Shown piece after piece: positions 41,902 to 64,000 of a DNA stretch of 64,000 bases. The position numbers were made by a program, and so were the translations under genes. The notes under the pieces are model-generated. The model was not told where the DNA came from and did no database searches. It saw nothing but the letters and a program-made list of their open reading frames with translations. The stretch lies in the IMG/VR virus record IMGVR_UViG_3300045988_098681. One strand, 5' to 3'. Every line of letters begins with the position of its first letter. Positions within the stretch are counted from its first letter, which is position 1. The DNA comes from a virus.

Positions 41902-42443
41902 CAAGCGAACAATCAAAATTTGCAGAAGAAAATATTCGCCTCATGTATCGCTATTTCAACATGCACAACATTACAAACGAGGACGATAAAGCAGACTTGT
42001 TTGAATACTATTGTAAAGTAATTGAATGTTACGATGATAAAAAAGGAAAATTCAGCACCCTGCTCTATTTTTCCCTTGACAGATATCGTAGACATATTTA
42101 TAATTATAAGTATAATAAGTGTAGATTTTCTGATAAGCCGAGTATATCTTTAGACTCAACTTATGATGACGAAAACGATTGGCTACAAGAGCTAGTTTGT
42201 GAAAGGGACGTTGATATTGAGTTTGTGGAGTTCTTGGATATTTGTGAGCGTGTTTATGATAAACTTGCAACTAAGAAAAATAGTTACAATCGAAAACTCG
42301 AAGATAGAGAACTCTTTACAATGCTCTTGGCAGGCTACACGAGAAAGGAGATTGGCAATATGTATAATATCTCACAACAAGCATTGTCTGTGAGGATTAA
42401 CAAAATTAAAGCAATTTTTTATAAGGAAATGGAGGAATGTTGA
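41898..42443 (+). CDS. phage sigma-70-family factor 2 (paralogue)
   Basis: FAEENIRLMYRYF..., C-terminal HTH RKEIGNMYNISQQALSVRINKIK; ATGA-coupled. Confidence 0.65.
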   Translation: MTSEQSKFAEENIRLMYRYFNMHNITNEDDKADLFEYYCKVIECYDDKKGKFSTLLYFSLDRYRRHIYNYKYNKCRFSDKPSISLDSTYDDENDWLQELVCERDVDIEFVEFLDICERVYDKLATKKNSYNRKLEDRELFTMLLAGYTRKEIGNMYNISQQALSVRINKIKAIFYKEMEEC

Positions 42444-43748
42444 TGAGAGTAGAAGAATGGCTTGGCGAAGATAATAAGATTGGGTTAGATATTTGGCACA
42501 AAAAGTATCAACATGGCAATGAGACATTCGATGAATGGCTTGATAGAGTAAGTGGAGGTGATAATGACCTAAGAGAACTCATTAAAAGTAAAAAGTTCTT
42601 ATTTGGTGGCAGAGTGCTTGCGAATCGAGGTGTGCCAGATAGTGGGAATTTTTATAATTGCTTTTCTGCCGGATATGTAAAAGACGATTATGCAAGTATT
42701 ATGGACGTATTAAAAGAAGTTGGTATTACGTTCAAGTATCAAGGTGGTCAAGGAATCTCCATGTCGAAACTTCGTCCAAAAGGAACAAAAATTGGCGATA
42801 ATTATGAGTCAGATGGTATTGTTCCTTTTATTGAAATGTTCAATTCTGTCACTAAAGGTACTTCGCAAGGCGGTGCAAGAAAAGGTGCTTTGATGATTAG
42901 CTTAGACATCAATCACAAAGAAGCCGAAACATTCATCAAGCTAAAAACTGATCTTGACGCTGTAACAAAAGCGAATCTCTCTATGGAAATAGACGATGAG
43001 TTTATGACTGCGGTGCAAGAGTTCTACTATGATGGGACAATAAAAACATTACATAAGAGATACAACTACAATGGGCATGTTGTGGAATATGATATTACGC
43101 CGATTGAATTGTATAAATTGATGATGGAAGTTGTATGGGACTACGGGGAGCCGGGGTGTATCTTTGTAGACGAATTTAGGAACAACAACTTTTTAGAGCT
43201 TGATAACGAGTATCAAATAGAAACTTGCAATCCATGCGGAGAACAACCATTAAAAGCTCGTACAAGCTGCTTGCTTGGCTCATTAAACTTATACGAGTTT
43301 GTTGAAAACAAGTTTACAAGTGATGTGTATTTTAACTTTGAGGAATTTGCAAAAGCTATTAAAGTAGCCTCAAATGCACTTGATAACATCATCGAAGAAA
43401 ATGCTCCAAGGCTTCCTAAAGAACTGGAGCAATACAAACAAAACGCTTATGATTGGCGTAATATGGGGCTTGGTGTATTCAACTATGCACACATGCTCAT
43501 GGCTATGGGGCTTAAATACGGTAGCGAAGAAGCGTTGGCTTTTACTGATACGCTATTTTACACTATGATGATAGAAGCCATTATATCAAATGACGAAAGG
43601 GGCAAAGAAAAGGGTAATTATCCAAAGTTCAAAGGCGGGTTAGTACAAAAGTCCACGATGTTTAGAAACCATGCCCCCGAAGAACTTTTACAAAACGGTG
43701 CGCTACATGCTAGAAATTGCACGTTGTTATCTATCGCGCCAACTGGAT
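42443..43748 (+). CDS. nrdJ: class II (B12-dependent) ribonucleotide reductase, exon 1
   Basis: FGGRVLANRG, QGGQGIS, GGARKGA, CNPCGEQPL, ends at IAPTG; the read-through ORF stops at 43759. Confidence 0.8.
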
Positions 43749-44051
43749 TAACACAATAGGTTCAGTATAAACTATTTTAATTGCTGGAAACCCCTTAGAG
43801 CTACTTAAACTACAACGTAGGTATGAAATAAAACCAAGCGTGAATGTCTGAAAATTAAGTAGATTGGGCAATCAGCAGCTAAGACTCGAATAGAGTAAAG
43901 TTCAACGACTATCCCGCAAGGGAGTACACAATAAGCAAGAAATGATTGTGGAAAAGGATAGATACTATTTATAGTATAAGATATAGTCTATTCTTATAGG
44001 AAACTATAAGCAGTTATATAACGGCAAATGTCTTGCGAACATTTGTGAATG
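43749..44051 (+). mobile_element. ORF-less group I-like intron in nrdJ (3' boundary uncertain, 44051-44057)
   Basis: ~300 nt with stops in all frames between two halves of one conserved gene; P1 ACUGGAU(43742-48)/GUUCAGU(43760-66) with terminal U.G; GNRA-capped hairpin UCCC-GCAA-GGGA at 43912-43923. Confidence 0.65.
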
Positions 44052-45067
44052 TAAAAACTATTGCAACGATGGTAAATGGCGCAGGAGGGGTTGAGCCTGA
44101 GTTTGCCTTATCCTACACTCGTAGAACAGACAATTTAGATGAATCCTACAAGATTGAGTCAAACATCGTAAAAGAATATCGTATAATCACAGGCAACACA
44201 GGCGAGCTACCAGACTATTTTGTATCAAGCGCAGACATCCATTGGAGAGACAGAGTAAAAACGCAATCTGTCATTCAAAAACATATTGATACAGCAATTA
44301 GCTCAACTGTCAACTTACCAAAGGAAACTACCAAAGAAGAAATCGAGGAACTATACTTATACGCTTGGATTTGTGGGTTAAAAGGAATTACAATCTTTAG
44401 AGATGGGTGCAAAAGACTTGGCATTCTCACAACACAAGAAGATGAAGCTACGCAAAGTGAAAAGCCTAAATCAGAACTCACTCGTGGAACCATTCTTTCT
44501 GTTTCCGACGACTTGATTGGCGCAAAAAGAAAATTGAATACAGGCTGTGGGTCTTTGCATTTTGAGGTATATTTTGATGAAGTGACAGGCGAACCACTTG
44601 AAACCTTTGTAAACGTAGGCTCTAGTGGTGGATGTGAGAAAAACTTACAATTCATTTCTCGACTCATCTCACTTGCCCTTAGAGCAGGTGTATCAATCGA
44701 GGATATTATCGACCAATGCAAGTCAATTAAACCTTGCCCTGCATATGTATCTAGGACTAATAAAAAACACGATACAAGCAAGGGATCAAGTTGTCCTAGT
44801 GCCATTGGATATGCGTTAGAGGATTTGTATGACAAAATCAAAGAACGATGCTTTGCGGATTTTGATTTAGAAGATGGTTATGTTGAACCATTGACAATCA
44901 GTTCACCTGCAATCAAAGAATCAGATAAGGTTGTAAAAACAGGTGCAGATGGTCAAATGATTATTAAAAACTCTGATTGTATATGTCCTGAATGTGGAGA
45001 ACCTTTAGTATTTGAGGGTGGTTGTAACCAATGCAAGGCTTGTGGTTTGTATAGTAATTGCGATTAA
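44052..45067 (+). CDS. nrdJ: class II ribonucleotide reductase, exon 2
   Basis: resumes (S/T)IATMVNGAGGVEPEF; TVNLP; ITIFRDGC; C-terminal CPECG...CNQCKACG Zn finger. Confidence 0.8.
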
Positions 45068-59457: not shown

Positions 59458-61104
59458 CTATATCTTGTTATACCTAAGTTCATTCCAAGTATAACTCCTT
59501 AAATCATTCCAAGTATAATTTCTCAAATCGTTCCAAGTAGTAGCCATAATTTCAAGAGCTGTTATTATTACTTCGTTTGGCAATAATGCTATCTTGAACC
59601 AATAATCAGATAAATTACCGCTCAATGGTTGCATTTGAACAGTTTCTTGCTTATTTATATCTCCATTGGAAATCTCATATATAAAAGAGCCACCTTGATA
59701 TGATAATTGGTATAAAGCATTGGTATAGTTTGTTGTTTCCATATCCTCATTTATATCATCCCATAGATATCTAAGGTTTGTGCCAGTGTTATTATAAATA
59801 ACATCGTTTCTTGGACTTGTGCCAGTAGTATCCCATGTATTAGTTGATATGGCAGTGTAAATAAGTTTTGTTGTTGTATTGTAATATTTATCGCCTGCTG
59901 TAGCAGACACTGGTGCGCTTGTACTCATTGCAACCAAATCAATATATTCACCCTCTTGTTTATAAATTATCCCACTAAAGTTATTATCTGTAGTGTGCCA
60001 ATTTATAAAAGTCGTAGATTCATATGGAACATATAAAGGTGATTGTGTTGAACCAATATTCCAAATGATATTTGTTCCATCATTTATTCTTACACTATTG
60101 CTACCGATATAAGGTTCATTTGTGAGAAAATCATATTGTGGGGATGTTGCAGTTTCAGATACTGCTTCGCCTCTATTTATCAATAATGGAGACCACATCA
60201 AATCTATTGAATCATTCTCACAATTTACTCTAGCTGTCGGCGGATTATCAATTTGTGGTTGAGCATATTGAACATCGAACCATATTGTAGGTTGATTCAA
60301 AATAACTCCATCTTGATTTTCTAATACTAAGCTGACACCATATCTTTCACTATTGATGAAGCCATCAAAAGTATATTCTATTACGCCTGCACTAATCTCA
60401 CCACTTCTATTTATAATCTCGCCCAACCGATTATAAATTATCCATTCAAAATATTTATACCCAATATTCTCATTCTGCTCATAAGTAGCTTTAAATGTAT
60501 AGGATTTGTTATCTACAATACTTGGAATTGCAGATAGAGTAAGGGTAGGATTCGTCCTAGCTTTAAAATAATAACTTGTAGAAGTTACATTGTTATTATA
60601 GATATTATAACTTGCATTATTATTTGCATACTGATATAAAGACGGATTTGTCACAACATAAACTTTTCCATCTTCCTCACCCATATCAGTAATTAACCCA
60701 CGATATGCTCCAATCTGCATATACATACCAGTTTTTACAAATTGATTTGGTCTAATATAAATGTGTTGATTAACAGTTGTCCCAATGCCTTGGCAAGTTC
60801 CATAAGTTATCCAGATATCTGCTATTTCTGTATATAGAGTAACACTCCATAAATAATCAACTCCATTTACTAATCCTACTGTTGATGGAACAGTAAACGA
60901 TAAAATATCGCCAGAATACAATGGTTTTGATAATGTAATTACACTAGATTGATATATACTTTCTCCACTATCTGTCGTAATTACATACTTATACGATGTA
61001 ACTTTTGTTCCACCATCGGCATTTATGTAACATGAAAATTCATTCACCTTTTTTCCATCTATATCTGATAAATATGGTGATGGATAGGACGGTTGGTATA
61101 ACAT
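59458..61104 (-). CDS. tail structural protein immediately after tape measure (distal-tail position)
   Basis: AAAGGAGGAAA RBS; C-terminal TWNDLR repeats. Confidence 0.5.
   Translation of the reverse strand: MLYQPSYPSPYLSDIDGKKVNEFSCYINADGGTKVTSYKYVITTDSGESIYQSSVITLSKPLYSGDILSFTVPSTVGLVNGVDYLWSVTLYTEIADIWITYGTCQGIGTTVNQHIYIRPNQFVKTGMYMQIGAYRGLITDMGEEDGKVYVVTNPSLYQYANNNASYNIYNNNVTSTSYYFKARTNPTLTLSAIPSIVDNKSYTFKATYEQNENIGYKYFEWIIYNRLGEIINRSGEISAGVIEYTFDGFINSERYGVSLVLENQDGVILNQPTIWFDVQYAQPQIDNPPTARVNCENDSIDLMWSPLLINRGEAVSETATSPQYDFLTNEPYIGSNSVRINDGTNIIWNIGSTQSPLYVPYESTTFINWHTTDNNFSGIIYKQEGEYIDLVAMSTSAPVSATAGDKYYNTTTKLIYTAISTNTWDTTGTSPRNDVIYNNTGTNLRYLWDDINEDMETTNYTNALYQLSYQGGSFIYEISNGDINKQETVQMQPLSGNLSDYWFKIALLPNEVIITALEIMATTWNDLRNYTWNDLRSYTWNELRYNKI
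59476..59547 (-). repeat. 3 x 24-bp in-frame tandem repeat
   Basis: encodes (Y)TWNDLRN / YTWNDLRS / YTWNELRY at the C-terminus of 59458-61104. Confidence 0.7.
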
Positions 61105-61121
61105 ATACCATTTCCTCCTTT

Positions 61122-61156
61122 CTAAAAAGAATATCCCCTGTCGAAACAGGGGATTC
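61122..61156 (-). terminator. intrinsic terminator/attenuator right after the tape-measure stop
   Basis: minus strand AUCCCCUGU-UUCG-ACAGGGGAU then AUUCUUUUU. Confidence 0.6.
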
Positions 61157-61160
61157 TATA

Positions 61161-62103
61161 TTAACCCCGAACAATAGCAAGATTTTGTAATTGTCTTACA
61201 AAGTCTTTTGCGTTGTCGGATTGTACGGTAAGATTTTGAATTGTAATGGAGTGGTCGTTTGTAATCACAGACGATTGCGCACCCATTAGATTCTTTGGAT
61301 TGATTCTACCCCAATCCATAAGGTTTTTCGTTAAGTCAGCAGGAATAATGCCTGTTCCCTTCTTTAGAAAATCATAGTTTCCCGTAGGAGGAATCATAAG
61401 CTCGTCACCAAGCTCGTTGACATTATAAACACCTGTCTTTGGAAGAGAAAGCGAACCCGAAGCCTTCTTGCCTGCTTTTTTAAGTGGGTCAGCAGTGCCA
61501 GCTTTAACTTTTTTCTTTGAGGTCTTGGTACTAGAAGCTCTATAATGTAAATTACCTTGTGCATCGTACCAAACTTCTACCTCGTATCCCTCAGCACGTC
61601 TTTGGTCGATATTGGCTTGAACTGCACGATTACGGATTTCTTGTGCCGACATGGTTTCTTGGTAATAGTAGGTTGCATCTGTTGTTTTTGTAGATGCAGG
61701 TTTCCATTCCGGAACGACCATGTTGTTTGCATTATTGAGGGCTGAATTTGCTAAATCAAGCTCCTTTTGAGCTGCATTAACAGCTTGGATTGCCGCAATA
61801 ACCTCTTGTGTCCCACTAATGTACGAGTTCTTCCAATTTGTAAAGTTTTGTGTTCGACCTTGGAATATGGCTTGTTCAATAGTCATGCCAAGTTCCGCTT
61901 CAATGTTGTAGCGGTTAAGAGCCTTTGTTTGCTCATCAATTACATCTTGGTATGCTTTCTTTTCATCTTCTTTTTTCTTAATTAAATCCTCAAGAGCCTT
62001 AATTTGTTCTTGAATTGCTTGCTTTTCTTTTTCGCGCTTTCGAGCAGTATCAAAATCATCGAGTGCGGTTTGAGCATCCTTTACTTTTTTAGGGTCAGCA
62101 GTC
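61161..62103 (-). CDS. tail tape measure protein, 3' exon (boundary +/- ~6 nt)
   Basis: frame stays open 72 codons upstream of the first ATG (..WTADPKKVKDAQTALDDFDTARKREKEKQAIQEQIKALEDL..), same coiled-coil character as the 5' part. Confidence 0.65.
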
Positions 62104-63502
62104 CATCAGTCTGTTACTTTTATGACCTATAAAAATAGGCGAGCTGGCATTTCTACCAACTTCTCACATTTCATTATTTGATTATAGTGTGAGTTCGGAC
62201 TATATATTAAATCTGTCTAAACAGATTAACAACTTCAATATATATGTTACCATATATATCCTGTAGTCTCTACGGATTTTAAATGTTAATAAAAAAGTTC
62301 TGATAAAATATTTTTTATATTTTTATACTCCCAATAAGGTATTTCAATAAATCTGATATTATGTTTTCTACAATATTCTCTTTTAATGTTATCTCTAATT
62401 TGTCCATTTTTAAAATTTTGTAAAGCCTCTTCTTTTGATGAGCCAAATGTTACAACCTCATAATGTTGTTGCCCCATATATTCAATTACACAATTATACT
62501 CTGGGAGATAAAAGTCATATTCTAGTGAGTTAATATATTTACATTTATCAAGGACACATTGTTCTATATATTCTATCCCCATCTCATCTAAAAATTTAGA
62601 AACTTCTCGTTCGCCAATAGTAGCATAGCATTTTGGACATTTTCTACCTACCAACATTTTGTTTGGAATCATCTCAAATTCCTTATGGCAAATATTACAT
62701 TTACATAAAATAGGAGTAGAATTATTAATATATTCACCTAAAATCTCATAACTTTTATCTCTTCTTGCATCGTTTATCAAATCTTCTTTAGTAAAATTCA
62801 ATAAATGACAACTACACTTATTCCTCTTTGCCATTAACCTCAAAGATTGCAACATGCAAGATTGAACCCCTTTATTCTTGTGCCTTTTACAAATATAAGA
62901 AACCCTACTTTTTCTTCTTTGATTTTTTCTATCAATACCTACATAAATCAATCCCGCATTGTCGCACAAATTATTTAATTCATTTACATTAAAAGGTTTC
63001 AATAAATTTTCATCTTCTCTCATTGCATTATATCTACATTCGTTATTGCAATATATTTTATCATATAACTTATATCTTGCCAATGAAATTCTTATAGAAT
63101 TACCACAATATGAACATTTCGTAGAAATAGACTTATTGGTTATGTTTAAAAAATTATCTAAAAGAAATATAATATCATCTAAATTTTTATTGCTGTCATT
63201 TAAAACAATTTCATTCAAACATTTCTTTTGATATAATAATTGATACAATAAATCATCTAATTCGCCTATATGCCAATTAGTTTCCAATAAAACTTTTTCT
63301 ACCTCTTCTTTTCTTCTATAATAAAAACTATATATCTTACAATTTTTATCTATTTTATATGGACATACAAAACACTCATATCCACAATATTGTAACTTTT
63401 TCATAACATTTAATCTTTCCTCGGTCTACACTATCTCTAGTCTTTAACCGATATAGTTGTTTTATTCGATATATGTCTCCATATAAAGGGGCATGTTAGT
63501 CT
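62104..63502 (-). mobile_element. ~1.4-kb intron-like insertion (probable group I intron) in the tape measure gene
   Basis: splits one coiled-coil ORF; carries nuclease ORF 62286-63404 flanked by 91 and ~180 nt of non-coding sequence; markedly AT-richer than flanks. Confidence 0.55.
62286..63404 (-). CDS. intron-encoded Zn-ribbon + Vsr/DUF559-like (PD-(D/E)xK) putative homing endonuclease
   Basis: multiple CxxC pairs; C-terminal E..VSKFLDEMGIEYIEQ...YDFYLPEYNCVIEYMGQQHY. Confidence 0.6.
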   Translation of the reverse strand: MKKLQYCGYECFVCPYKIDKNCKIYSFYYRRKEEVEKVLLETNWHIGELDDLLYQLLYQKKCLNEIVLNDSNKNLDDIIFLLDNFLNITNKSISTKCSYCGNSIRISLARYKLYDKIYCNNECRYNAMREDENLLKPFNVNELNNLCDNAGLIYVGIDRKNQRRKSRVSYICKRHKNKGVQSCMLQSLRLMAKRNKCSCHLLNFTKEDLINDARRDKSYEILGEYINNSTPILCKCNICHKEFEMIPNKMLVGRKCPKCYATIGEREVSKFLDEMGIEYIEQCVLDKCKYINSLEYDFYLPEYNCVIEYMGQQHYEVVTFGSSKEEALQNFKNGQIRDNIKREYCRKHNIRFIEIPYWEYKNIKNILSELFY

Positions 63503-64000
63503 ACCCATCCTAAACTGCTGTCATATACCCTAACCGTCTTTTGCTTCTTGGCTTCTTCAAGTGCATTAACCAACTTAATACGTTCAGCCTGTTTATCAAG
63601 AGCTTCATTTTGCTCGTCCATAAGGTCAAGTTGTTCGTTAAGTTTTGCAATTTGCTCATTATAGCCATCTATCGTTTTGTCGATAATTTCTGTTTGCTCG
63701 TCTGCATAGAATTGCAAGGCTGATATAAACGCATTGGCTCTATCTTGTCTCTTTTGAGCTTCTTCTAACTTCTTTTGAGCTGCTTCGACTGCGGCTTCGG
63801 CGGCTTCAATCGCCGCTTGTTTAAGAGCCTTGGCAACCTCGTTCTTTGCTGCATAAGCTGCATCTACAAGTGCATTACGAGTCACCTTAACCATTGACTT
63901 GTCTAATGCACCCGACTTAACAGATTGTCTTATAGATTTTTCGGACTTCTTTTGAGCTTCGTCTACCTTCTTTTGGTATTGCTCGGCTGTTAGTTGTCCG
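63503..64000 (-). CDS. tail tape measure protein, 5' exon (partial, continues beyond window)
   Basis: A/E/K/Q-rich coiled coil; frame open to the window edge; ends ...YDSSLGWV. Confidence 0.65.

What the first reader, a model, noticed from the sequence alone, without database searches (positions are those of the whole stretch)
62104..63502. Tape-measure gene interrupted by an intron-like element encoding a Vsr/DUF559-type nuclease
The minus-strand coiled-coil ORF entering from the window edge stops at 63496 (...SSLGWVD-stop). An ORF of identical character is already open at 62105 (WTADPKKVKDAQ...), 72 codons before its first ATG at 61886 and without any RBS. That argues for RNA splicing rather than two separate genes. 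The 1.4-kb insert is visibly more AT-rich. It carries a 372-aa ORF with several CxxC ribbons and a C-terminal ...YDFYLP..IEYMGQQH.. nuclease signature (PD-(D/E)xK, Vsr/DUF559-like, reminiscent of EDxHD-type homing enzymes). One junction with a 5' U and a 3' G (63503 | 62103) restores the frame as ...GW-V-TADPKK. Introns in tail-length-determining genes are uncommon, and this nuclease architecture is not one of the classical LAGLIDADG, GIY-YIG or HNH intron enzymes.
Basis: partly seen in the sequence, partly recalled or inferred. Interest (0 to 1): 0.75.

Follow-up and report, generated by a model that had tools for sequence, protein, structure and literature searches.

The report
Mobile intron splitting phage tail-length gene
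A gut-phage tail tape-measure gene is interrupted by a 1.4-kb self-splicing group I intron that carries its own Vsr-like homing nuclease gene; this is a real but well-precedented kind of selfish element.

Summary
The minus-strand tape-measure (TMP) reading frame breaks at 63503 and resumes at 62106. The 1396-nt insert (63502..62107) is AT-rich and carries a 372-aa ORF.

A 97%-identical faecal phage scaffold (MT837813.1) has the same gene uninterrupted, reading ...GWVWTADPKK. This fixes the junction at U63503 | A62106, with the intron's terminal G at 62107.

The insert folds as a group I intron, with P1-P10 and a P3/P7 pseudoknot.
- On 25 relatives, 89.6% of cells pair, against 34-41% in slid controls, and 51 of 76 pairs show changes on both sides.
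- The splice-site U·G pair is present in 25 of 25.
- An ORF-less relative matches Rfam Intron_gpI over its full length (E = 4e-6).

The ORF fills the P6 loop exactly. Its C-terminal domain models confidently, and its best structural matches are Vsr and the I-Bth0305I catalytic domain, with E-D-x-H-D-type residues invariant. Upstream lie CapR/DUF4379-like zinc ribbons.

Both parts have precedent:
- TMP group I introns have been described since 2008.
- This nuclease architecture was described in 2025.

Splicing and cleavage are inferred, not shown. Verdict: a new member of a known kind, of low to moderate interest.

The parts
63503..64000 (-). Tape-measure gene, exon 1. Only its 3' part is in the window; it runs off the window edge. 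The last exon base is U63503.
   Evidence: Aligns without gaps at 96.8% to L001 2363-2860, inside an uninterrupted 1129-aa ORF. That ORF matches the TMP family PHROG 4211 at 2.7e-25.
62107..63502 (-). Group I intron, 1396 nt. It starts at A63502 and ends at the terminal G62107. The exon frame meets a stop (TAA 63498-63496) two codons into the intron.
   Evidence: This block is absent, to the base, from L001. The fold is supported by covariation. An ORF-less relative hits Rfam RF00028 over the full model.
63489..63495 (-). Internal guide sequence 5'-CAUGCCC-3'. GCCC (63492-63489) pairs with the exon-1 end GGGU (63506-63503), forming P1 with a U63503·G63492 wobble. CAU (63495-63493) pairs with the first exon-2 bases AUG (62106-62104), forming P10.
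   Evidence: P1 is paired in 100% of cells, 3 of its 4 pairs show changes on both sides, and the U·G is present in 25 of 25. P10 is seen across the family.
63470..63485 (-). P2 hairpin, UAUAUG-GAGA-CAUAUA.
   Evidence: All 6 pairs show changes on both sides and 99.1% of cells pair. Coordinates.
63421..63461 (-). P3 5' strand (63461-63456), then P4 (63451-63446 with 63426-63421) and P5 (63441-63438 with 63433-63430, GAGA loop).
   Evidence: P3 has 3 of 6 pairs and P5 has 4 of 4 pairs with changes on both sides. P4 is invariant. Coordinates.
63405..63420 (-). P6 5' strands: GG at 63420-63419 and UUAAAUGUU at 63413-63405. They end directly at the ORF's start codon.
   Evidence: They pair with 62275-62274 and 62287-62279. 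All 9 inner pairs covary.
62286..63404 (-). Homing endonuclease gene (372 aa) filling the P6 loop. It has degenerate CapR/DUF4379-like zinc ribbons (about residues 90-262) and a Vsr-like nuclease domain (about residues 262-372). Residues E265, D297, E308, H314, D338 and K341 are invariant.
   Evidence: PHROG 559 at 5e-46, 9084 'homing endonuclease' at 2e-29, 7140 'intron encoded nuclease' at 5e-12. 104 homologues found. Invariant residues. Foldseek best matches are Vsr and I-Bth0305I.
62274..62287 (-). P6 3' strands. AACAUUUAA (62287-62279) overlaps the ORF's TAA stop. CC lies at 62275-62274.
62198..62268 (-). Catalytic core, 3' half: P7 5' strand GACUA (62268-62264, within the R-like element CCGUAGAGACUACAGG); the P7.1 hairpin (62260-62237, GUAA loop); P3 3' strand (62233-62228); P8 (62227-62210); J8/7 and P7 3' strand UAGUC (62202-62198, S-like element AAUAUAUAGUCC). 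P3 and P7 form the group I pseudoknot.
   Evidence: P7 has an A-U to G-C swap (14 against 11 sequences), P7.1 has 9 of 10 pairs with changes on both sides, and P8 has 7 of 7. The Rfam alignment of the L006 relative places the same elements. Coordinates.
62107..62193 (-). Peripheral 3' domain: P9 (62193-62188 with 62168-62163), P9.1 (62161-62156 with 62147-62142), P9.2 (62139-62135 with 62130-62126), then the conserved GUAACAGACUG ending in the terminal G62107.
   Evidence: P9 has 4 of 6 pairs and P9.1 has 5 of 6 pairs with changes on both sides. P9.2 is seen in individual sequences but is badly aligned. nhmmer finds this 3' half once in the window.
61161..62106 (-). Tape-measure gene, exon 2 (A62106 to the stop at 61161).
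   Evidence: Aligns without gaps at 97.8% to L001 2862-3867. Joining 63503 to 62106 in silico gives one open frame to 61161 reading ...SSLGWVWTADPKK....

Best explanation
The element is a mobile group I intron, subgroup IA-like, with an extra hairpin between P7 and P3'. It is inserted in a conserved motif (KQKTxRVY..GWV|W.ADP) of a gut phage's tail tape-measure gene.

Splicing (inferred). After transcription the intron RNA folds into P1-P9. Its guide sequence CAUGCCC holds the exon-1 end GGGU through a U·G wobble. An exogenous guanosine cleaves after U63503. The freed exon-1 3'-OH then attacks after the terminal G62107, while the guide sequence aligns exon 2 through P10. The exons are joined as GGA UGG GU|A UGG ACU, so one full-length TMP is translated. 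The in-frame TAA two codons into the intron stops ribosomes on unspliced RNA.

Mobility (inferred). The P6 loop carries a homing endonuclease gene. The protein uses zinc-ribbon (CapR/DUF4379-like) modules to bind DNA and a Vsr-like (EDxHD-type) domain to cut. In a mixed infection it would cut the intron-less TMP allele near the insertion site. Repair from the intron-plus copy would then copy the intron in.

Shown here:
- the precise presence/absence polymorphism;
- the conserved, covarying RNA fold;
- the nuclease fold and its conserved residues.

Inferred, not shown: splicing in vivo and cleavage of the target.
For: 1. Intron-less allele. MT837813.1 is 97-98% identical and gapless on both sides. 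It lacks exactly 63502..62107 and encodes one 1129-aa TMP reading ...GWVWTADPKK.
2. Frame. The in-silico splice 63503|62106 gives a single open frame.
3. RNA fold. With P1-P9.2 and the P3/P7 pseudoknot laid on 25 ORF-deleted relatives, 89.6% of cells pair against 34-41% when partners are slid. 51 of 76 pairs show changes on both sides. 0 of 500 shuffles reach the observed values. The U·G at the 5' splice site is present in 25 of 25.
4. Guide sequence. It co-varies with unrelated exon ends at different insertion sites (GGGU/GCCC, CGGU/GCCG, GGAU/GUCC, GAGAU/GUCUC, UCUCU/GGAGA). P10 of 2-9 bp accompanies the frame-keeping, G-terminated 3' site in 24 of 25.
5. Rfam. An ORF-less family member (L006) matches RF00028 Intron_gpI over model positions 1-253 with E = 3.8e-6.
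6. ORF position. The ORF occupies exactly the P6 loop. Relatives have the same loop empty, filled with other ORFs, or holding a decayed remnant.
7. Nuclease. PHROGs labelled 'homing endonuclease' and 'intron encoded nuclease' match. E265, D297, E308, H314 and D338 are invariant in 69 homologues. The domain model has pLDDT 93.9. Its top PDB matches are Vsr-DNA 1CW0 (6.7e-4, TM 0.70), 1VSR, and I-Bth0305I 3R3P (1.6e-3, TM 0.70).
8. The same window holds a second, canonical group I intron in its ribonucleotide reductase gene (73.5 bits).
9. Precedent: PMC2504315, PMC10448857, PMC12350094.
Against: - No RNA or protein data are available, so splicing and cleavage are inferred.
- Rfam gives no Intron_gpI hit on the window's own copy, even at E <= 10 on the 3' part. 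The L006 relative scores 30.5 bits, below the family's gathering score of 50.
- The covariation alignment was assembled by me from ORF-deleted pieces, and the structure was first drawn on the window sequence. This favours the unslid structure somewhat.
- P10 in the window is only 3 bp.
- The ORF has no Shine-Dalgarno sequence of its own at normal spacing. GAGG lies 14 nt upstream and sits inside P4/P6, so expression may be weak.
- The N-terminal ~90 residues model poorly, and their zinc-ribbon modules are degenerate compared with those of the homologues.
Confidence: 0.9

Rival explanations
1. Genes in pieces. A free-standing homing endonuclease gene landed inside the TMP gene and split it. The two halves are translated separately and assemble without any RNA splicing.
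For: Exon 1 ends at a stop two codons after the break. Database annotators treat such loci as separate genes: in Thomasclavelia phage TR-TP1 the pieces are 'tape measure protein', 'HNH endonuclease' and 'hypothetical protein'. Split genes caused by endonuclease insertion are known in T4-like phages (cited in PMC10448857).
Against: Exon 2 has no start codon for 73 codons and no ribosome-binding site. About 280 nt of non-coding sequence flank the ORF. They form a conserved, covarying group I fold whose guide sequence pairs with both exon ends. ORF-less copies of the same RNA interrupt TMP genes in the same way. The insert boundaries obey the U|...G| rule and restore the exact intron-less protein.
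Confidence: 0.04
2. A dead intron or relic. The RNA is a real group I intron by descent, but this copy no longer splices or its endonuclease is inactive. The contig would then represent a defective phage, or an intron that persists only passively.
For: The window copy gets no Rfam hit. The N-terminal zinc-ribbon modules are degenerate and poorly modelled. Related copies clearly show ORF decay (L007 remnant, L003 frameshift). The ORF lacks a well-placed Shine-Dalgarno sequence.
Against: Every helix of the family consensus is intact in the window copy, and all invariant core positions are kept. The copy at 88% identity (L002) differs from the window in P2 by compensatory changes and keeps a full-length ORF. 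All invariant catalytic residues are present. A phage cannot build a tail without a complete TMP (general knowledge), so selection on splicing is strong.
Confidence: 0.06
3. Another kind of intervening element, namely an intein or a group II intron.
For: Both occur in phage genes. Homing endonucleases with the same CapR-like plus Vsr-like architecture were found in phage group II introns (PMC12350094).
Against: The insert is not in frame with the exons: there is a stop two codons in, and the ORF has its own ATG 98 nt downstream. That excludes an intein. There are no group II domain hits apart from one noise-level match at E = 4.9. The RNA instead has the group I P1-P9 layout with R/S-like elements, and a relative matches RF00028.
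Confidence: 0.005

Closest known systems
Group I introns in tape-measure genes of Bacillus cereus-group prophages (TMP-IVS1/2/3; Tourasse & Kolsto 2008, PMC2504315), and the spliced TMP intron of vibriophage ICP1 (PMC10448857)
   Same: The host gene is the same and the intron class is the same (IA-type phage introns). As here, similar intron cores sit at different TMP sites and are retargeted through P1/P10. Copies occur with or without an endonuclease gene. An early in-frame stop follows the 5' splice site.
   Different: The phage lineage differs (uncultured human-gut phage; the nearest cultured carriers are Thomasclavelia phages). The insertion site differs. The endonuclease family differs: those introns carry HNH or GIY-YIG genes or none, whereas this one carries a Vsr-like gene. 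Sequence relatedness of the RNAs to those introns was not tested here.
I-Bth0305I, prototype of the EDxHD (Vsr-like) homing endonucleases, from the recA group I intron of Bacillus phage 0305phi8-36 (PMC3239194; PDB 3R3P)
   Same: Both are intron-encoded, with a C-terminal catalytic domain of about 100 aa and a Vsr fold (Foldseek 1.6e-3, TM 0.70). Both have an ordered set of conserved E, D, x, H, D residues. Here these are E265, D297, E308 or Y309, H314 and D338. The D-to-H spacing is 17, as in I-Bth0305I (196 to 213).
   Different: There is no detectable sequence match. The H-to-D spacing is 24, closer to Vsr (28) than to I-Bth0305I (9). The DNA-binding part consists of CapR/DUF4379-like zinc ribbons, not NUMOD/helix-turn-helix motifs. 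The ORF sits in P6, not P5.
CapR-like plus EDxHD/Vsr-like homing endonuclease genes reported in phage group II and group I introns (NAR 2025, PMC12350094)
   Same: The architecture is the same: several ~60-aa modules distantly related to Pfam CapR, DUF4379 and DUF723, followed by a ~100-aa Vsr/EDxHD-like domain. That paper says the homologues lie mostly in group I introns and form a large, unannotated group.
   Different: I did not compare sequences with that paper's four proteins directly. The window protein has fewer and more degenerate zinc-ribbon modules than its homologues (only weak Pfam hits). No member of the group has been tested biochemically.
Phage T4 td intron with I-TevI (from general knowledge, not tested here)
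   Same: It is a group IA phage intron with the endonuclease ORF looped out of P6. The core is split into a 5' part of about 100 nt and a 3' part of about 180 nt.
   Different: The host gene differs (thymidylate synthase) and so does the nuclease family (GIY-YIG). No sequence comparison was run.

Membership tests
Group I intron | P1 helix formed by the exon-1 end and an internal guide sequence, with a U·G wobble at the 5' splice site. | tested here: met
   GGGU (63506-63503) pairs with GCCC (63492-63489). The U·G is present in 25 of 25 relatives, and the other P1 pairs co-vary with the exon sequence.
Group I intron | The intron ends in G, and P10 pairs the guide sequence with the start of exon 2. 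| tested here: met
   G62107 precedes exon 2. CAU pairs with AUG (3 bp). The intron-less allele fixes the site. 24 of 25 relatives have a G-terminated, frame-keeping site with P10 of 2-9 bp.
Group I intron | Conserved core P3-P9 with a P3/P7 pseudoknot and P4-P6 stack, supported by covariation. | tested here: met
   89.6% of cells pair against 34-41% in slid controls. 51 of 76 pairs have changes on both sides. 0 of 500 shuffles reach the observed values.
Group I intron | Match to the curated covariance model Rfam RF00028 at its gathering score. | tested here: inconclusive
   The window copy, with 1.1 kb in P6, gives no hit. The ORF-less relative L006 matches the full model 1-253 at 30.5 bits, E = 3.8e-6, below the gathering score of 50.
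Group I intron | Guanosine-dependent self-splicing of the RNA. | not testable with these tools
   Needs in vitro transcription and splicing, or RNA-seq of infected cells.
EDxHD / Vsr-like homing endonucleases | Catalytic domain with the Vsr endonuclease fold. | tested here: met
   The domain model has pLDDT 93.9. Foldseek top hits are 1CW0_A (6.7e-4, TM 0.70), 1VSR (8.1e-4) and 3R3P_B I-Bth0305I (1.6e-3, TM 0.70), all with probability 1.00. The full-length model also has 1VSR as its top hit.
EDxHD / Vsr-like homing endonucleases | Conserved composite active-site motif E...D...x...H...D. | tested here: met
   E265, D297, E308, H314 and D338 are invariant in 69 homologues.
EDxHD / Vsr-like homing endonucleases | Significant sequence similarity to family members. 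| tested here: not met
   phmmer and a profile search of all PDB chains do not find 3R3P or Vsr. Pfam gives only DUF2726 at E = 0.07. This is consistent with the 'outgroup' status stated in PMC12350094.
EDxHD / Vsr-like homing endonucleases | Cleaves the intron-less allele next to the insertion site. | not testable with these tools
   Needs the expressed protein and a target such as L001 2840-2885.
CapR-like plus Vsr-like homing endonuclease group (PMC12350094) | Several N-terminal ~60-aa CapR/DUF4379/DUF723-like zinc-ribbon modules ahead of the nuclease domain. | tested here: met
   Window protein: CapR at 1e-4 and DUF4379 at 0.04. Most of the 104 homologues carry PF14311, PF05265 and PF21817. 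The profile matches DUF4379 proteins in the PDB over positions 140-250. The modules in the window protein are fewer and degenerate.
HNH endonucleases (the label of PHROG 559 and of the TR-TP1 annotation) | HNH/beta-beta-alpha-metal catalytic motif. | tested here: not met
   No HNH family appears in the Pfam or NCBIfam scans. The catalytic domain has a Vsr-type alpha/beta fold. The label looks like a misnomer.
Phage tail tape-measure protein (the host gene) | Match to TMP families, and position in the tail module upstream of distal tail genes. | tested here: met
   The uninterrupted homologue matches PHROGs 4211, 14917 and 1533, all 'tail length tape measure protein'. A related locus carries PF10145 PhageMin_Tail. 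The exon-2 piece alone has no hit.

The most novel reading that the evidence does not exclude
The intron-encoded protein may be an active member of a large, biochemically untouched branch of Vsr-like homing endonucleases. In this branch DNA recognition would be built from strings of small CapR/DUF4379-type zinc ribbons. In that case this intron RNA family, seen here at many different TMP sites with many different ORFs in P6, spreads by swapping guide sequences and nuclease cassettes. A modular zinc-ribbon array joined to a Vsr-type cutter would be a new scaffold for target-site engineering. The window provides a natural enzyme/target pair, with MT837813.1 as the uncut allele.
Probability: 0.5. 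Interest if true: 0.4.

Novelty: new member of a known kind. Interest (0 to 1): 0.25.

Why it matters
For annotation: this TMP is one gene, not two. Public records of related cultured phages (Thomasclavelia TR-TP1 and TR-TP2) list the pieces as 'tape measure protein', 'HNH endonuclease' and 'hypothetical protein'.

For biology: this adds a well-defined case to the picture that tape-measure genes are hot spots for mobile group I introns. The case has a precise intron-less allele, mapped splice sites and a covariation-backed structure.

It also supplies a clean enzyme/target pair for the first biochemical test of the CapR-like plus Vsr-like homing endonuclease group.

It does not change any concept.

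Tried and rejected
- Rfam on the window copy (61500-64000 at E <= 1; 62095-62300 at E <= 10) found no group I match, only noise. The model does not tolerate 1.1 kb in P6 and is weak on this subgroup. I therefore went to ORF-less relatives.
- Rfam on L004, a different TMP intron-like gap carrying a homologous nuclease, found nothing. It was not pursued.
- A five-locus Rfam scan did not re-find the family copies. It found other group I introns beside them.
- Pfam and NCBIfam on the ORF gave only sub-threshold hits.
- PDB sequence and profile searches found only zinc-ribbon proteins.
- hhalign against Vsr was weak (E = 0.085). The nuclease assignment therefore rests on predicted structure and conserved residues.
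- Automated P1 detection mis-called several loci, so I curated the 5' splice sites by hand.
- I looked for a co-conversion tract around the insertion by comparing window and L001 mismatches. They are scattered evenly, with only two silent changes next to the junction.
- Intein and group II readings were rejected (see the rival explanations).
It keeps the frame, but it deletes the Trp present in the intron-less allele and has only 1 bp of P10.
- No covariance model was built, because the pair counts already answered the question.
Full report
**1. The observation**

On the minus strand, a coiled-coil reading frame enters from the window edge. It ends ...SSLGWVD, with TAA at 63498-63496. A frame of the same character is open from 62105 (WTADPKK...), right after a TGA. 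It has no ATG, GTG or TTG until 61886, 73 codons later.

Between the two lies a 372-aa ORF at 63404..62286. G+C drops to 21-31% across the insert, against 36-46% in the flanks.

**2. An intron-less allele**

A megablast of 61100-64000 against phage records found one hit, MT837813.1. It is an unannotated 6.1-kb scaffold from human faeces, and it covers the two flanks but not the middle.

Pairwise alignment gives the following:
- window 64000-63503 aligns to L001 2363-2860;
- window 62105-61100 aligns to L001 2862-3867;
- both are gapless, at 97-98% identity, with one base between them.

In L001 a single 1129-aa ORF runs through and reads ...SSLGWVWTADPKK.... That ORF matches tape-measure PHROGs (2.7e-25).

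The sequences compare as follows:
- L001 has GGT TGG GTT TGG ACT.
- The window has GGA TGG GT | A GAC TAA ... CAG ACT G | A TGG ACT.

Removing 63502..62107 (1396 nt) therefore restores GWVWTAD exactly. The last exon base is U and the last intron base is G, as group I splicing requires. Joining 63503 to 62106 in silico gives one open frame down to the stop at 61161.

Mismatches between the two phages are scattered over 3.6 kb without gaps. These are therefore two variants of one phage lineage, with and without the insert.

**3. The RNA**

By eye the non-coding parts are strongly structured. An R-like element (CCGUAGAGACUACAGG) and an S-like element (AAUAUAUAGUCC) are recognisable.

Rfam found nothing on the window copy, so I collected relatives:
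- The ORF's closest homologues lie in the same intron in the same gene (L002 at 88% identity; L003).
- Two pattern scans of IMG/VR with conserved core strings gave 3 and 41 loci.
- Most loci examined sit in TMP-like genes, at several different sites.
- P6 is either closed (ORF-less, intron about 300 nt) or carries inserts of 0.2-1.7 kb.

An ORF-less member (L006 1031-1259) matches Rfam Intron_gpI over the whole model (1-253). The score is 30.5 bits, E = 3.8e-6, which is below the gathering score of 50.

I aligned 25 distinct ORF-deleted introns (A1). I then laid on them a structure drawn on the window sequence: P1, P2, P3, P4, P5, P6, P7 (as a pseudoknot with P3), P7.1, P8, P9, P9.1 and P9.2. 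Results:
- 89.6% of cells form standard pairs, against 34-41% when the 3' partners are slid by 1-3 columns.
- 51 of 76 pairs show changes on both sides.
- No shuffle out of 500 reaches the observed values.
- The splice-site U·G is present in 25 of 25.
- P4 is invariant.
- P9.2 is badly aligned and uninformative.

The guide sequence changes with the exon end at different insertion sites: GGGU/GCCC, CGGU/GCCG, GGAU/GUCC, GAGAU/GUCUC, UCUCU/GGAGA, GAUGGU/GCCAUC.

In 24 of 25 members, a G-terminated 3' site that keeps the reading frame also pairs with the 5' part of the guide sequence (P10, 2-9 bp). In the window this is AUG with CAU.

The extra hairpin between P7 and P3' points to subgroup IA. 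That assignment is from my knowledge of the Michel-Westhof classes and was not tested. The window has only one copy of this intron family.

**4. The ORF**

Its ATG follows the P6 5' strand directly, and its TAA overlaps the P6 3' strand, so it fills the P6 loop exactly.

Family matches:
- PHROGs labelled 'HNH endonuclease' (5e-46), 'homing endonuclease' (2e-29) and 'intron encoded nuclease' (5e-12) match.
- Pfam gives only weak CapR, DUF4379 and DUF2726 hits.
- 104 homologues were found, most carrying DUF4379, DUF723 and CapR labels.

In an alignment of 69 homologues, E265, D297, E308, G311, H314, D338, K341 and Y357 are invariant.

Structure prediction:
- The full-length AlphaFold model is confident only from about residue 210 onward. 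Its best PDB match is E. coli Vsr.
- A model of residues 252-372 alone has pLDDT 93.9.
- Its three best matches are Vsr-DNA (1CW0, E = 6.7e-4, TM 0.70), Vsr (1VSR), and the I-Bth0305I catalytic domain (3R3P, E = 1.6e-3, TM 0.70).

The order E-D-x-H-D and the D-to-H spacing of 17 match the EDxHD motif defined for I-Bth0305I (PMC3239194). Sequence searches do not connect the two, and hhalign to Vsr is weak. No HNH motif or family is detected, so the 'HNH' labels are probably wrong.

**5. Mechanism**

See the best explanation.
- Shown: the presence/absence polymorphism, the fold, and the nuclease fold with its conserved residues.
- Inferred from the established chemistry of group I introns and from the homing paradigm: guanosine-initiated splicing that joins 63503 to 62106, and cleavage of the intron-less allele followed by repair-mediated copying.

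**6. Comparison with what is known**

- Group I introns in TMP genes were described at three sites in Bacillus cereus-group prophages. Related cores there were retargeted through P1/P10, and the introns carried HNH, GIY-YIG or no endonuclease genes. Lactobacillus phage JCL1032 (TMP) appears in that paper's table of related phage introns (PMC2504315).
- The EDxHD/Vsr family is one of the recognised homing endonuclease families (PMC3239194, PMC6083498).
- The CapR/DUF4379/DUF723-like plus EDxHD/Vsr-like architecture was described in 2025. It was called a large unrecognised outgroup found mostly in group I introns (PMC12350094).

Both halves of the finding are therefore members of known kinds. 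The combination (a Vsr-like endonuclease gene in a TMP intron) and the lineage (an uncultured human-gut phage) are new instances.

The nearest cultured carriers are Thomasclavelia phages TR-TP1 and TR-TP2. Their record annotations do not recognise the intron.

**7. Verdict**

This is a real, well-defined mobile group I intron with a Vsr-like homing endonuclease gene.

- Novelty: new member of a known kind.
- Interest: 0.25.

Noticed in passing
window 43713-44010 (+): There is a second group I intron in the window. Rfam RF00028 scores 73.5 bits, above the gathering score, over the full model. It is ORF-less, about 300 nt, and splits the ribonucleotide reductase large-subunit gene. The flanking ORFs 42425-43756 and 44000-45064 match PHROG 84 at profile positions 248-666 and 666-973. 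A 65-nt stretch of it is 90% identical to Enterocloster phages.
   Followed up: partly
L005 2530-960 (-); the same exon-1 end occurs in L018 and L044: Three large IMG/VR phage contigs share the exon-1 end GAG CGG TCA AGG GU|. In L005 the 3' splice site best supported by P10 (6 bp...AAUG|UCGUAUGG) puts exon 2 one base out of frame. Relative to the related L007 (GAA GGU CAG GGA UGG GU|A UGG) there is one extra C. An in-frame, G-terminated site 9 nt further on has no P10. Possible causes are an assembly error, a pseudogene or an unusual 3' site choice; this is not resolved.
   Followed up: partly
L007 5060-4800 (-); L003 3598-4762: The endonuclease gene is decaying inside otherwise intact introns of the same family. 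L007 keeps only the last ~70 codons of the nuclease domain in its P6 loop. L003 has the ORF split by a frameshift. This fits the invasion, decay and loss cycle.
   Followed up: partly
L006 2570-960 (-); L020, L022, L029, L032, L033, L038, L039: Single TMP-like genes carry two or three introns. Several loci have more than one copy of this family. Others have a different group I intron (RF00028 at 37-45 bits) a few hundred bases from the family copy.
   Followed up: partly
L046 = Thomasclavelia phage TR-TP1 PQ571309.1 28534-30045 (also TR-TP2): This cultured phage has a related intron (3' half 80% identical) four codons upstream of the window's site (YEEG|VGWTWQANPEDVKEA). The record annotates the pieces as 'tail length tape measure protein', 'HNH endonuclease' and 'hypothetical protein'. 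A second 'HNH endonuclease' lies just upstream of the TMP CDS.
   Followed up: partly
window 63426-63404: The endonuclease ORF has no Shine-Dalgarno sequence of its own. The only GAGG lies 14 nt upstream and is part of the P4/P6 strands, and the ATG abuts the P6 stem. Many relatives instead carry a separate AGGAGG inside the P6 loop. Translation here may depend on the intron being unfolded. This was not tested.
   Followed up: no
window 62202-62281 (-): There is a weak Rfam match (18 bits, E = 0.68) of the P6'-P7 region to RF02841 'Enterococcus sRNA 70'. The consensus of that family begins with a GUAGGGACUACAGG-like string, resembling a group I R element. It may be chance.
   Followed up: no
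L004 1650-3440: Another TMP-like gene is interrupted by a 1.8-kb gap. The gap carries a homologous nuclease (P0003, 36% identity) behind about 350 nt of structured RNA with R/S-like strings, but Rfam finds no group I match there.
   Followed up: partly
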